The notes below the pieces were generated by a model. That model was given only the letters and a program-made list of their open reading frames with translations, did not search any database and was not told where the DNA came from. Made by a program: the position numbers and the translations under genes. A stretch of DNA of 64,000 nucleotides from a virus, in IMG/VR virus record IMGVR_UViG_3300032093_000021, positions 76,165 through 140,164 of that record, one strand, 5' to 3'. Of the stretch, positions 60,135-62,160 are shown piece after piece (position 1 is the first letter of the stretch; every line of letters begins with the position of its first letter).

Positions 60135-60246
60135 GATGATTTAAGGGAGTGCTAAACTAACAAGTTCCCCCCATAAGGGATGGACAAACTAATCAATTAA
60201 CCCCATAAGGGATCATCAGATTAACAAAGCGCCCCCATAAATCATC
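60135..60246 (-). ncRNA. Putative structured RNA: 3 x 32-nt repeat closed by terminal inverted repeat
   Basis: TAAGGGA at 60142/60174/60206 and CCCATAA at 60170/60202/60234; GATGATTTA (60135-60143) pairs with TAAATCATC (60238-60246). Confidence 0.6.
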
Positions 60247-60255
60247 TTAATTTTT

Positions 60256-61137
60256 TTAATTAATCGCATTTTTATATACGTGTTTATGATTCATATGATT
60301 GTCTCTAACCAAATTTATATCAACGAAACCACCAGCATTAATATCCTTGAAAACAACAGTGTAAAAGGGTTCAGATAATGGACCAAATATTTTCGGACAC
60401 AACCCGTTTGATTGAGTTGCGTCAGGATTATCTATGGCAACAGCCAAACTATACTTTATTATGTTTGATTGAGGTTTTTGCATACCAATTCTTATGTTAT
60501 CGGATGATACTTGGTGAATTGTTGGCGAAAAGCTCCCCGATGGAAAAACGTTTTCGTCCCAAGACTGAAGAACACCACTTGTTCTGTAATTCCAAAACAT
60601 ATACTTGTTAAAATCAATTCCAAATATTTCATATGGAATTATTGTTTGAGGTATAGCCCACTCTGTTGTTCTACCTGTTAATTCAATACCATTTGGATAA
60701 TGCCATTGTTTTCCGTTAAAAAACTTCCATCCCGCCCATTTTGTTTCTGAGCCTTGCGTTGTTGGATGGACCCATTTGGGGTTCTTTTTTCTTTTACCTC
60801 TGGGGTCAGAGATATTCTCCCTATAACTATACCTACCTTTTTTCCATCTAAATAAAAAAAGTTCCGGATTGTTTGATGCGGAAATAAACTGAGTATCAGA
60901 AAATTGTATTGCCAATCCATTTCTGATATACTGTCCAGTGTTGCCTGTAAATAAAACAATTGGTTGTGGTATTACAACTCCTGTTCCACCACCACCTCCA
61001 CCACCAATTTCTATTGTTTGACCCAAGTGGTTAGTCAAAGCTGCTTTCTCATTGGTCTTAATACCAAATATCATTTTTCCAACATTTGATGATGGTGGAA
61101 AACTCGATTGTTTGTCTAATTCAATATAACTGGGCAT
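60256..61137 (-). CDS. Fibre-region protein with basic loop, paralog B
   Basis: Start MPSYIELDKQ at 61137 by alignment to paralog A; Gly linker; PELFLFRWKKGR...RGKRKKNPKWVHP. Confidence 0.85.
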   Translation of the reverse strand: MPSYIELDKQSSFPPSSNVGKMIFGIKTNEKAALTNHLGQTIEIGGGGGGGTGVVIPQPIVLFTGNTGQYIRNGLAIQFSDTQFISASNNPELFLFRWKKGRYSYRENISDPRGKRKKNPKWVHPTTQGSETKWAGWKFFNGKQWHYPNGIELTGRTTEWAIPQTIIPYEIFGIDFNKYMFWNYRTSGVLQSWDENVFPSGSFSPTIHQVSSDNIRIGMQKPQSNIIKYSLAVAIDNPDATQSNGLCPKIFGPLSEPFYTVVFKDINAGGFVDINLVRDNHMNHKHVYKNAIN

Positions 61138-61150
61138 AAATTTGTTTTTT

Positions 61151-61304
61151 ATCAATTATGGGACAACAACAATACGATCCAATTCCCTCTGGCGCTTTAT
61201 AGGCGCCAGAGGCCTTTCGGCCCGAAGGGATAAGACACTAGCTCGTTCATCCCTACCCTTGGTAGGGGGGACGAAAAAAATAACATCATTATCCCATAAT
61301 TGAT
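61151..61304 (-). ncRNA. Putative multibranch structured RNA (about 154 nt)
   Basis: 13-bp perfect terminal IR ATCAATTATGGGA/TCCCATAATTGAT, extended by G-U pairs on the minus strand. Internal hairpins: CCCTACC/GGTAGGG, GGCC-GAAA-GGCC, TCTGGCGC/GCGCCAGA. GC-rich relative to the genome. Confidence 0.65.
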
Positions 61305-61314
61305 CATAATATTT

Positions 61315-62160
61315 TTAATTTAACGTGTTTTTTATTACATGTTTATGATTCATATGATTTTCTTTTACTAATATAACATCCGCAAAAAGCCCACCTGATG
61401 CGTCAATAATTGAAAATATAGGTTCGGAAAGAGGTCCGAATATTTTAGGACATAGTCCATTTGTTTTTGTTGCGTCAGGATTGTCAATTGCAACTGCAAA
61501 ACTAAATTTTATTATATTACTTAGTTTACTACCTCTAGTACCTCCTATATTAATAATATTTTCTATAGTTCCATGGTTTGTTGGTAAAAAGCTATCATAA
61601 GCCCAAACATTCACGTCCGTTACTGTTCCTCCGGTATTCGTATTTGTTATATTCCAAAACATATATTTATTGAAGTCAATAAAAAATTTTTCATAAGGTG
61701 TTATTCCTGAAGGTATTACCCATTCTGTTGTTCTACCTGTTAAAATATTAGACCCGGCGTCAATTTGACTCCCCCCAAAAAACCTCCAACCCTGCCATTT
61801 TGTATTTGCATCATTAGTTGATGGGTGAACCCACTTTGACTTTTTTCGTCTCCTTCTAGTTCCAAATTTAGAATGATGTGAATTCCTCCATCTGAACAAA
61901 AATATTTCAGGATTTCCTTGGGTATAGTCAAGTCCGGTATCTGGAAGTTGTATTGCAACACCATTCGCGTTGGTTCCTGTTATTGATATAATGGGTTGTG
62001 GAATTTGAAACCCCGTTCCTTCCCCACCAATTTCGACAGTATTACCCAAATGATCGGTCAATGCCACCTTTTCATTTGTTTTAACACCGAAAATCATTTT
62101 TCCGGAACTTGAAGATGCGGGAAAAGAAGAATTTTTATTTAGTTCAATATATGATGGCAT
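61315..62160 (-). CDS. Fibre-region protein with basic loop, paralog A
   Basis: Full-length paralog of 60256..61137; PEIFLFRWRN...GTRRRRKKSKWVHP. Confidence 0.88.
   Translation of the reverse strand: MPSYIELNKNSSFPASSSSGKMIFGVKTNEKVALTDHLGNTVEIGGEGTGFQIPQPIISITGTNANGVAIQLPDTGLDYTQGNPEIFLFRWRNSHHSKFGTRRRRKKSKWVHPSTNDANTKWQGWRFFGGSQIDAGSNILTGRTTEWVIPSGITPYEKFFIDFNKYMFWNITNTNTGGTVTDVNVWAYDSFLPTNHGTIENIINIGGTRGSKLSNIIKFSFAVAIDNPDATKTNGLCPKIFGPLSEPIFSIIDASGGLFADVILVKENHMNHKHVIKNTLN

What the first reader, a model, noticed from the sequence alone, without database searches (positions are those of the whole stretch)
60135..62160. Tandem [basic-loop protein + own structured RNA] x2 in the tail-fibre region: candidate phage ribonucleoprotein system
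Seen: two full-length paralogs (61315..62160 and 60256..61137) each carry a strongly basic loop (RWRN...TRRRRKKSKWVHP; RWKKGR...RGKRKKNPKWVHP) after a short N-terminal module and Gly linker. About 10 nt after each stop codon lies a GC-rich element closed by a terminal inverted repeat (61151-61304, 60135-60246). Both elements have TTATGGG in the 5' arm of the closing stem on the sense strand. They are much larger and more branched than the simple terminators elsewhere in the window. Established: Arg-rich motifs (lambda N, HIV Tat/Rev) bind structured RNA, and long closing stems are typical RNase III-type processing substrates. Inference: gene and RNA duplicated as a unit, so each protein may bind its own excised RNA. 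Because the genes sit among fibre/decoration genes, the RNP might be part of the virion. I know of no described system with this layout.
Basis: partly seen in the sequence, partly recalled or inferred. Interest (0 to 1): 0.9.

Follow-up and report, generated by a model that had tools for sequence, protein, structure and literature searches.

The report
Fibre-protein gene with its own folded RNA
Each of two neighbouring phage fibre-type genes is followed by a folded three-armed RNA that matches no Rfam family, and the RNA has stayed with this protein family across unrelated phages, so gene and RNA probably work together, though binding between them is untested.

Summary
The two paralogs are 56% identical. 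Each is followed, 9-10 nt after its stop codon, by a strongly folding element closed by an inverted repeat containing TTATGGG/CCCATAA.

The pattern extends well beyond the window. In 22 of 23 gene copies examined, down to about 35% protein identity, the same kind of element sits directly after the stop codon. The host phages include jumbo phages, crAss-like phages and roughly 40-kb phages. The upstream gene is constant, whereas the downstream genes fall into at least six unrelated classes.

The element is a three-way junction: a closing stem, two arms closed by CCC/GGG, and three junction strands that each carry UANU. Minimal forms are three 32-nt units. Covariation, GNRA/UUCG loops, conserved G-U pairs and conservation above synonymous sites all point to a sense-strand RNA under selection. 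It matches no Rfam family and has no other copy in these genomes.

The protein has an Ig/FN3-like beta-sandwich and a family-wide basic beta-hairpin (net +7 to +11). It is predicted to trimerise through its N-terminus.

Binding of the protein to its own RNA fits all of this but is untested, and a virion RNP is speculative. The main rival is a protein-independent element for mRNA processing or stability.

The parts
61315..62160 (-). Paralog A, 281 aa. It has an N-terminal trimerisation/anchor module (about residues 1-46), a Gly linker, and a beta-sandwich domain carrying a basic beta-hairpin (about residues 85-113, net +10).
61151..61304 (-). Element A, a 154-nt three-way-junction RNA in the 3' UTR of paralog A. 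The closing helix is about 20 bp (61285-61304 pairing with 61151-61170).
61248..61273 (-). Element A, arm 1: a GC-rich hairpin closed by C-run/G-run pairs.
61185..61229 (-). Element A, arm 2: a CCC/GGG-closed arm that branches into a GAAA-tetraloop hairpin (61211-61223) and a 7-bp GC hairpin. Both hairpins change by compensating substitutions in L008.
60256..61137 (-). Paralog B, 293 aa, same architecture as paralog A. Its basic hairpin has net charge +9.
60135..60246 (-). Element B, a 112-nt minimal three-way junction built from three 32-nt units. The 5' arm is 60232-60246 and the 3' arm is 60135-60149.
60201..60211 (-). Element B, hairpin 1 (CCC, UUAU loop, GGGG).
60167..60179 (-). Element B, hairpin 2 (CCC, UUAU loop, G-run).
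59691..60116 (-). Downstream fibre-type gene (141 aa). It is not a constant partner of the element: its N-terminus is conserved but its C-terminus is swapped among relatives.

Best explanation
Shown: each gene of this family carries, in its 3' untranslated region, a homologous sense-strand RNA that folds into a three-way junction. The junction has a closing stem with a UUANGGG/CCCNUAA core, two arms closed by CCC/GGG, and three roughly 9-nt junction strands that each hold UANU. Minimal forms are three 32-nt units. The RNA is under purifying selection and is inherited with the gene, not with whatever lies downstream.

Inferred: the RNA is a specific partner of the protein encoded just upstream. 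The protein is predicted to trimerise through its N-terminal module. That leaves three beta-sandwich domains, each with a strongly basic beta-hairpin, on Gly linkers. I propose that each hairpin contacts one of the three equivalent arm-plus-junction units.

The most likely outcome is feedback on the late polycistronic mRNA, acting on its stability or processing, or on translation of the cistron that starts 13-18 nt further on. A chaperone role that helps the trimer assemble is also possible. A stable RNP in the virion is the least likely version.
For: **Linkage**
- The element is present after 22 of 23 gene copies (21 distinct sequences).
- The host phages include a complete 310-kb jumbo phage, crAss-like contigs (ring protein, Cpn10, muzzle genes) and roughly 40-kb phages where the gene follows terminase.
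- Downstream genes fall into at least six unrelated classes and the upstream neighbours also differ.
- Neither the 140-kb nor the 310-kb genome holds another strong copy.

**Homology of the elements**
- A model built from 7 B-type and small-phage elements finds held-out elements exactly at the stop codon: L032 1.6e-9, L034 4e-8, L030 8e-8, L013 3e-6, L031 2e-5, and A types 5e-8 to 4e-4.

**RNA-level selection**
- In 11 sequences, 81% of cells are paired against 65.5% in shuffles. 24 of 34 pairs change on both sides. The covariation score is 0.459 against 0.184 (0 of 500 shuffles) and at most 0.183 when the partners are slid.
- In the A-type closing helix, 92.8% of cells are paired and 9 of 20 pairs are compensatory. 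The score is 0.388 against 0.163, and one U-G pair is conserved.
- GAAA, GUAA and UUCG tetraloops close the inserted hairpins.
- The sense strand folds better in 10 of 11 elements, and G-U pairs outnumber A-C pairs 27 to 16.
- Element identity is 0.88-0.91 against 0.75 at four-fold degenerate sites in the closest relatives, and 0.68-0.72 against 0.46-0.57 in further ones.

**Protein**
- The basic hairpin has net charge +7 to +11 in all 24 aligned members, and pI is 8.6-9.8. Most neighbouring virion genes have pI 4.7-5.1.
- The hairpin is kept in distant relatives.
- Homotrimer prediction: score 0.54 (median of three runs), best control 0.00. That mark was reached by 20 of 30 proteins solved as pairs of one chain and by 1 of 23 solved as single chains. 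These counts hold only roughly here, because my own alignment and three copies were used. The runs agree in at least 45% of contacts and the partner's pLDDT is at least 71. The interface is residues 1-46.

**Units**
- The three junction strands of one element resemble each other more than they resemble those of other elements. UA lies exactly 10 nt before each CC(C).
Against: - No test of RNA binding was possible, and the match between a trimer and a threefold RNA is only a coincidence of numbers.
- The protein has no recognised RNA-binding fold. Its best structural matches are FN3/Ig sandwiches at Z 5.7, which is weak.
- In distant relatives the domain ends long fibre-like or collagen-repeat proteins, so the basic hairpin may bind an anionic host-surface polymer instead.
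- One close relative (L005) has lost 91 nt of element B while keeping an intact paralog B.
- Larger elements (L003, L031, L002) appear to have more than two inner arms, so threefold symmetry is not universal.
- Similarity among units can come from recent unit duplication, since L011 and L030 have identical units.
- An RNA encoded once per mRNA is poorly placed to supply a stoichiometric virion component.
Confidence: 0.4

Rival explanations
1. The element is a protein-independent cis element of the late mRNA. In this view it is an intercistronic processing and stability module, acting through RNase III-type or other host nuclease cleavage of the closing helix. Alternatively it is a 3' barrier to exonucleases that sets how much of the upstream cistron survives, as in lambda sib retroregulation, T7 RNase III sites or selective RNA processing and stabilisation. 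In some lineages it would double as a terminator.
For: - The element sits between a stop codon and the next start in co-oriented late genes.
- The closing helices are long: 20 bp in A and 26-30 bp in L004, L011, L013 and L031.
- The GC hairpins with GNRA/UUCG loops are very stable.
- A U-rich tract follows the stem in L002, L031 and L034.
- Stem-loops in 3' UTRs are known to set operon stoichiometry (PMC4423207, seen).
Against: - A generic stabiliser needs only a stable hairpin. It would not need a conserved junction, a 32-nt unit, UANU strands or a conserved stem sequence kept across about 35% protein identity.
- No other gene in the 140-kb or 310-kb genome uses such an element.
- Both window elements are followed by A-rich tails, not U-rich ones. 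Bacteroidota terminators deviate little from the hairpin-plus-U type (PMC13613805), although Bacteroidota as host is only inferred here.
- Closing helices are only 10-17 bp in several members: B types, L032 and L034.
- The 140-kb contig holds no RNase III gene, though it is only 47% complete.
Confidence: 0.3
2. The element is an independent trans-acting non-coding RNA released from the mRNA, for example a decoy or sponge for a host RNA-binding protein or defence nuclease. In this view it merely hitch-hikes with the gene cassette.
For: - The multi-unit repeat design resembles sponge or antitoxin RNAs such as the ToxI repeat arrays.
- The same phage carries a full GOLLD RNA, so large functional RNAs occur in this lineage.
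- The closing helix could define an excisable unit.
Against: - Strict linkage to one protein family in unrelated backbones is not expected for a free-standing RNA gene.
- No ToxN/AbiQ-type or other defence family matches the neighbouring protein.
- No promoter or terminator of its own is evident.
Confidence: 0.12
3. The element acts at the DNA level. It could be a recombination or cassette-boundary site, a miniature inverted-repeat mobile element, or an array of protein-binding repeats phased at 32 bp.
For: - It has terminal inverted repeats.
- There is a presence/absence difference between L005 and L006.
- The gene-plus-element cassette occurs in unrelated phages.
- A 32-bp period equals three turns of DNA.
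- The fibre gene downstream has swapped C-termini among relatives.
Against: - There is one copy per gene, with no dispersed copies and no target-site duplication.
- Insertions in A types destroy the 32-bp phasing but keep the RNA junction. The insertions are themselves hairpins with RNA-type tetraloops.
- Compensatory changes, conserved G-U pairs and better sense-strand folding argue for RNA.
- The contig holds no reverse transcriptase. A recombinase was not searched for.
Confidence: 0.08
4. This is the first reader's strongest version: the excised RNA and the protein form a stable ribonucleoprotein that is a component of the virion.
For: The evidence is the same circumstantial set as for protein binding. 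The genes also lie among fibre and virion genes: PHROG virion structural protein and tail assembly chaperone, and a DUF5122 propeller.
Against: - There is no evidence of excision or packaging.
- The stoichiometry of an mRNA-borne RNA is unfavourable.
- One relative has lost element B.
- Nothing in these data points to RNA in the virion.
Confidence: 0.06

Closest known systems
Lambda sib retroregulator and T7 intercistronic RNase III sites
   Same: These are structured RNAs placed 3' of a phage gene or between cistrons. They act in cis on the stability of the upstream message through a long helix.
   Different: Those are single irregular hairpins without a conserved multi-arm junction, and they are not inherited with one protein family across unrelated phages. 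No cleavage is shown here, and several members have helices too short for RNase III.
MS2/PP7 coat protein with its operator hairpin; T4 gp32, gp43 and RegA operators
   Same: In these systems a phage structural or replication protein binds a specific fold in its own polycistronic mRNA and so controls translation. In MS2 the bound site belongs to the next cistron.
   Different: The known operators are single hairpins or pseudoknots at a 5' end or start codon, and they are bound by dimers or monomers. Here the RNA is a 110-180-nt three-way junction after the stop codon, the proposed ligand is a trimer, and binding is untested.
Type III toxin-antitoxin RNA arrays (ToxI with ToxN)
   Same: Both have tandem RNA units of about 32-36 nt. 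In ToxIN the units assemble with the protein into a closed 3:3 complex.
   Different: The ToxI array lies upstream of an endoribonuclease toxin and is cut into units. Here the units pair with each other into one junction, the partner is a beta-sandwich fibre-type protein, and no PADLOC family matches it.
phi29 packaging RNA (pRNA)
   Same: This is a phage-encoded RNA with a three-way-junction core that binds a symmetric virion protein assembly.
   Different: pRNA is a separate gene near a genome end, forms intermolecular rings on the portal and serves DNA packaging. There is no sequence or Rfam similarity.
Orphan gene-linked RNA motifs of aquatic phages, including the fibre-gene leader RNAs noted earlier in this scan
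   Same: These are RNAs that earlier follow-up reports of this scan describe as absent from Rfam and as three-armed RNAs tied to one class of fibre gene in large aquatic phages.
   Different: Those are 60-75-nt 5' leaders of the downstream fibre gene. This element is 110-180 nt and follows its partner gene, while the downstream gene varies. No look-alike stretch was found in other windows of the scan.

Membership tests
Any Rfam 15 family | Covariance-model score at or above the family's gathering threshold | tested here: not met
   There were no matches in the whole window at gathering thresholds. At E up to 10 over 60050-61400 only chance-level hits appeared, the best being snoR31 at 24 bits against a cut-off of 44.
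Rho-independent terminator | GC-rich hairpin | tested here: met
   Stable GC hairpins are present.
Rho-independent terminator | U-tract directly after the stem on the transcribed strand | tested here: not met
   The tails after both window elements have 9-10 A and 1-3 T in 12 nt. Some distant members (L002, L031, L034) do have U-rich tails.
RNase III processing site (T7 R sites, lambda sib) | Roughly two turns of double-stranded RNA | tested here: inconclusive
   Element A has 20 bp. Element B has about 17 bp with bulges. L032 and L034 have 10-13 bp, and L004, L011 and L013 have 26-30 bp.
RNase III processing site (T7 R sites, lambda sib) | Cleavage in vivo or in vitro | not testable with these tools
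Type III toxin-antitoxin (ToxIN, CptIN, TenpIN) | Tandem RNA repeats | tested here: met
   Element B, L004, L011 and L030 each have three 32-nt units.
Type III toxin-antitoxin (ToxIN, CptIN, TenpIN) | ToxN/AbiQ-type endoribonuclease gene directly downstream of the repeats | tested here: not met
   Downstream genes are varied and unrelated. The family protein has no PADLOC, Pfam or NCBIfam match.
Miniature inverted-repeat mobile element | Many dispersed copies and target-site duplications | tested here: not met
   The only copies are the two after the paralogs in 140 kb. The 310-kb relative has none elsewhere at E below 0.07. No flanking duplication was seen.
Retron or diversity-generating retroelement RNA | Adjacent reverse transcriptase | tested here: not met
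   PF00078 has no match in the 140-kb contig, which is 47% complete. The protein's C-terminus is conserved, not variable.
Arginine-rich-motif RNA binders (lambda N, HIV Tat/Rev) | Short basic segment | tested here: met
   The segment has net charge +7 to +11 in all members. It is predicted to be a beta-meander within a folded domain, not a free peptide.
Arginine-rich-motif RNA binders (lambda N, HIV Tat/Rev) | Specific binding to a structured RNA | not testable with these tools
   No tool available here models or measures protein-RNA binding.
Trimeric phage fibre or decoration proteins | Homotrimer through an N-terminal module, with a distal domain on a linker | tested here: inconclusive
   Trimer prediction scored 0.54 with best control 0.00. 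That mark was reached by 20 of 30 solved same-chain pairs and 1 of 23 single chains, and the counts are rough here. Contacts lie in residues 1-46. N-terminal modules are swapped between subfamilies. Distant relatives carry the domain at the end of long proteins of 462-829 aa, one of them with collagen repeats. There is no Pfam or PHROG fibre match.

The most novel reading that the evidence does not exclude
A pseudo-threefold three-way-junction RNA, encoded in the 3' UTR of a fibre-type gene, is the specific ligand of the homotrimer made from that same mRNA, with one basic beta-hairpin per RNA unit. The resulting 3:1 protein-RNA complex would template or chaperone trimer assembly, feed back on fibre expression, or even ride on the virion. 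This gene-plus-RNA module would be exchanged as a unit among jumbo, crAss-like and small phages.
Probability: 0.3. Interest if true: 0.9.

Novelty: new variant of a known kind. Interest (0 to 1): 0.64.

Why it matters
Gene-specific folded RNAs in bacteria and phages usually mark a direct molecular partnership, such as a riboswitch or an autoregulatory operator. Several features of this one are unusual:
- It lies after its gene rather than before it.
- It is built from three near-equivalent 32-nt units that form a closed junction.
- It has travelled with one protein family through very different phages, including crAss-like ones.

If the predicted trimer binds it, this would be a symmetric protein recognising a symmetric RNA encoded on its own message, and a new way for phages to control or assemble host-recognition fibres. 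I know of no described example. Even if the RNA only governs mRNA fate, it is a well-supported RNA motif, absent from Rfam 15, that could be added to RNA family libraries and tested at the bench.

Tried and rejected
**RNA classification**
- Rfam at gathering thresholds and at E up to 10, and ARAGORN, found nothing relevant in the window.
- A CUGAUGA string in element B looked like a hammerhead core, but it is not conserved in L006 and the GAAA/UH parts are missing, so I rejected it by eye.
- I considered stop codons inside the junction strands (UGA UAA UGA in L030). Other members have UAU there, so I rejected this.
- I considered the Bacteroidota -7 promoter motif in the junction strands. The spacing does not fit.

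**Searches for more copies**
- The pattern of two CCCTTATGGGG hairpins 15-30 nt apart, searched in IMG/VR, returned six contigs. They hold unrelated short tandem repeats and no homolog of the protein.
- DNA search and tblastn against GenBank phages with three family members found no match.
- No relative was found in one genome each of 185,579 bacterial and archaeal species, so no prophage copy or host clue came from that route.
- IMG/VR searches with three distant relatives found nothing, and a profile of distant relatives was too diverse to search with.
- Weak model hits elsewhere lack the closing motif and were set aside: L003 6929-7055, L034 3948-4037, and three places in the 310-kb genome at E 0.07-0.6.

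**Protein**
- Foldseek against PDB and BFVD, the ESM Atlas searches by shape and by features, and a PDB sequence search gave no convincing relative.

**Expression**
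Full report
**Setting**

The window is the last 64 kb of a 140-kb IMG/VR viral contig with 32% GC. 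CheckV puts it at 47% complete, so it is probably a jumbo phage. Nearly all long ORFs in the window, and every gene near the finding, lie on the minus strand.

The neighbours are virion-type genes. They include a DUF5122 beta-propeller protein, a DUF7936 protein, a PHROG 'virion structural protein', a DUF1353 protein that PHROG calls a tail assembly chaperone, and then a glycosyltransferase block.

**The observation**

Paralog A (61315-62160) and paralog B (60256-61137) are 56% identical. Ten and nine nt after their stop codons lie element A (61151-61304) and element B (60135-60246).

As sense RNA the A intergenic region folds to -71.7 kcal/mol (z -7.5) and the B region to -44.6 kcal/mol (z -4.3). 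No shuffle folded as well. The antisense strands fold less well.

The 13-nt perfect terminal repeat of element A is the only one of its kind in the 140-kb contig. The tandem duplication covers the gene and its flank (repeat families D2, D5, D6 and D7).

**The protein family**

A word-indexed search gave 36 homologs. An exhaustive profile search gave 187 cluster representatives at E up to 1e-3, of which 22 were at 1e-30 or better. None matches Pfam above its cut-off, and there is no PHROG, NCBIfam or PADLOC match.

The AlphaFold model (pLDDT 80.9) is all-beta. Foldseek found nothing. VIA-align gave only FN3/Ig-like sandwiches at Z 5.7 or less over residues 50-253, so I read it as a decorated beta-sandwich.

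Two different N-terminal modules occur in the family. In distant relatives the domain ends proteins of 462-829 aa, one of them with collagen repeats. That is the pattern of a distal fibre or decoration domain.

A three-copy prediction supports trimerisation through residues 1-46:
- Score 0.54, best control 0.00.
- That mark was reached by 20 of 30 proteins solved as pairs of one chain and by 1 of 23 solved as single chains. The counts are only rough here, because my own alignment and three copies were used.
- The runs agree in at least 45% of contacts, and the partner's pLDDT is at least 71.

The basic segment is a predicted beta-meander (residues 85-111). Its net charge is +7 to +11 in all 24 aligned members, and the proteins have pI 8.6-9.8. 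Most neighbouring virion proteins have pI 4.7-5.1. Distant relatives keep the hairpin.

**The RNA goes with the gene**

I fetched DNA around homologs from 88% down to about 35% identity. Of 23 gene copies, 22 are followed at once by an element closed by a long stem. That gives 21 distinct sequences, 97-167 nt long where the closing repeat could be delimited.

Two further contigs could not be read as DNA, but they show gaps of 152 and 133 nt at the same place.

The one exception is L005. It has lost 91 nt, about three units, of element B but keeps the 3' arm and an intact gene. The nearly identical L006 has the full element.

The genomic contexts differ widely:
- Jumbo phages, including a complete 310-kb genome.
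- Two crAss-like contigs, where the downstream genes are 49% identical to each other. One of these contigs carries ring protein 2 and Cpn10 upstream and a weak crAss muzzle-domain match downstream.
- Phages of about 40 kb, where the gene follows the large terminase subunit.
- A contig where the gene follows a GIY-YIG gene and an amidase-like gene.

All-against-all BLAST shows the downstream genes fall into at least six unrelated classes, and the upstream neighbours also differ. The constant partner is therefore the gene upstream of the element. The RNA is a 3' element of that gene, not a leader of the next one.

No other copy exists in the 140-kb or the 310-kb genome. No bacterial genome or GenBank phage carries the protein.

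**Architecture**

Minimal forms are element B, its relatives, L004, L011, L030, L032, L034 and L013. They align over their whole length. Each has these parts:
- A closing stem with a nearly invariant UUANGGG/CCCNUAA core.
- Two inner hairpins closed by CC(C)/GG(G).
- Three junction strands of about 9 nt, each with UA followed one base later by U. The UA lies exactly 10 nt before the next CC(C).

The unit length is 32 nt in the jumbo, crAss-like and small-phage members alike. Within an element the units resemble each other closely, and they are identical in L011 and L030.

Joining the two ends of the closing stem would create a third hairpin like the other two, so the RNA has pseudo-threefold symmetry.

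A-type elements keep this plan but carry extra hairpins at the arm tips. Those hairpins have GAAA, GUAA or UUCG loops. L002, L003 and L031 are larger and seem to have more arms.

**Evidence for selection on an RNA**

- On 11 minimal elements, 81% of cells pair against 65.5% in shuffles. 24 of 34 pairs change on both sides. The covariation score is 0.459 against 0.184 (0 of 500 shuffles) and at most 0.183 for slid partners.
- On 7 A-type elements the 20-bp closing helix is 92.8% paired, with 9 compensatory pairs. The score is 0.388 against 0.163, and at most 0.074 when slid. One U-G pair is conserved, and it would be an A-C mismatch on the other strand.
- The sense strand folds better in 10 of 11 elements, and G-U pairs outnumber A-C pairs 27 to 16.
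- A model trained on seven elements finds held-out ones at E 1.6e-9 to 2e-5, and the A types at 5e-8 to 4e-4.
- The elements are more conserved than four-fold degenerate sites of the adjacent genes: 0.88-0.91 against 0.75 in the closest relatives, and 0.68-0.72 against 0.46-0.57 for B types in more distant ones.

**What it is not**

- It matches no Rfam family.
- It is not a canonical terminator in this window, because the tails are A-rich. A 2026 survey reports that Bacteroidota terminators stay close to the hairpin-plus-U type (PMC13613805). Bacteroidota as host is only inferred here, from the crAss-like relatives and from DUF5122.
- It is not a dispersed mobile element, since there is one copy per gene.
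- It is not a retron or DGR RNA, since there is no reverse transcriptase.
- It is not a type III antitoxin array, since no nuclease lies downstream and no defence family matches.

**Mechanism**

What is shown is a gene-specific, selected, sense-strand three-way-junction RNA. Conserved sequence inside helices and junction strands implies recognition by a factor. The only factor shared by all these phages at the locus is the protein itself.

That linkage, the family-wide basic hairpin and the predicted trimer make binding of the trimer to its own 3' RNA the best single explanation. I put it at about 0.4. The likely outcome is feedback on mRNA fate, control of the next cistron, or help with assembly.

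The main rival, at about 0.3, is a protein-independent processing or stability module of the kind known from lambda sib, the T7 RNase III sites and selective RNA processing and stabilisation (PMC4423207). It explains the position and the long helices. It does not explain the conserved junction or the restriction to one gene family.

I rate a free-standing trans-acting RNA at 0.12, a DNA-level site at 0.08 and a virion RNP at 0.06.

**Comparison with earlier notes of this scan**

Two earlier notes on this window describe the two elements, and my tests agree with them. Other windows of the scan yielded 60-75-nt three-armed leader RNAs in front of fibre genes of large aquatic phages. Those notes prompted the upstream-versus-downstream test, which shows that this element belongs to the preceding gene. 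No look-alike stretch was found in other windows.

Noticed in passing
Outside the window: same contig G000:C1 about 13595-13998, minus strand (L039:1096-1499): A full-length GOLLD RNA (Rfam RF02032, 324 bits, E 2e-93) lies about 650 nt from a tRNA-Met(CAT) at L039:2151-2223. This phage therefore also carries a large known structured RNA.
   Followed up: partly
window 59691-60116 and L002, L005, L006, L018: The fibre-type gene after element B keeps its first 47 or so residues but has very different lengths and C-termini in relatives: 141, 466, 555 and 1007 aa. This looks like cassette swapping of the distal part.
   Followed up: partly
L005:2371-2419 versus L006:1973-2112: Two nearly identical metagenomic relatives differ by a clean 91-nt deletion. 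It removes about three 32-nt units of element B and leaves the 3' arm.
   Followed up: yes
L032:1895-2023: In this distant member the closing stem is 19 bp, starts at the stop codon, and its 3' arm contains the ATG of the next gene. Here the fold could couple or mask downstream translation.
   Followed up: no
G003 (contig of L004): 14-125 and 39923-40034: The element occurs at both ends of the 40.1-kb contig. That implies a terminal overlap, from either a circular assembly or a terminal repeat, that breaks at the repeat-rich element.
   Followed up: no
L030:513-5861: A family member lies in the tail module of a crAss-like phage, between ring protein 2 with a Cpn10-like gene and a gene with a weak crAss muzzle-domain match.
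   Followed up: no
L020-L025 (IMG/VR contigs): Unrelated viral contigs carry tandem arrays of short units containing CCCTTATGGGG, with a period of about 20-40 nt, and have no homolog of the protein. Their nature is unknown.
   Followed up: partly
window 62172-62561 and L002:3400-3990: The small gene just upstream of paralog A is conserved next to the family gene in the jumbo relatives (54% identity over 79 residues). It is absent from the small-phage and crAss-like contexts.
   Followed up: no
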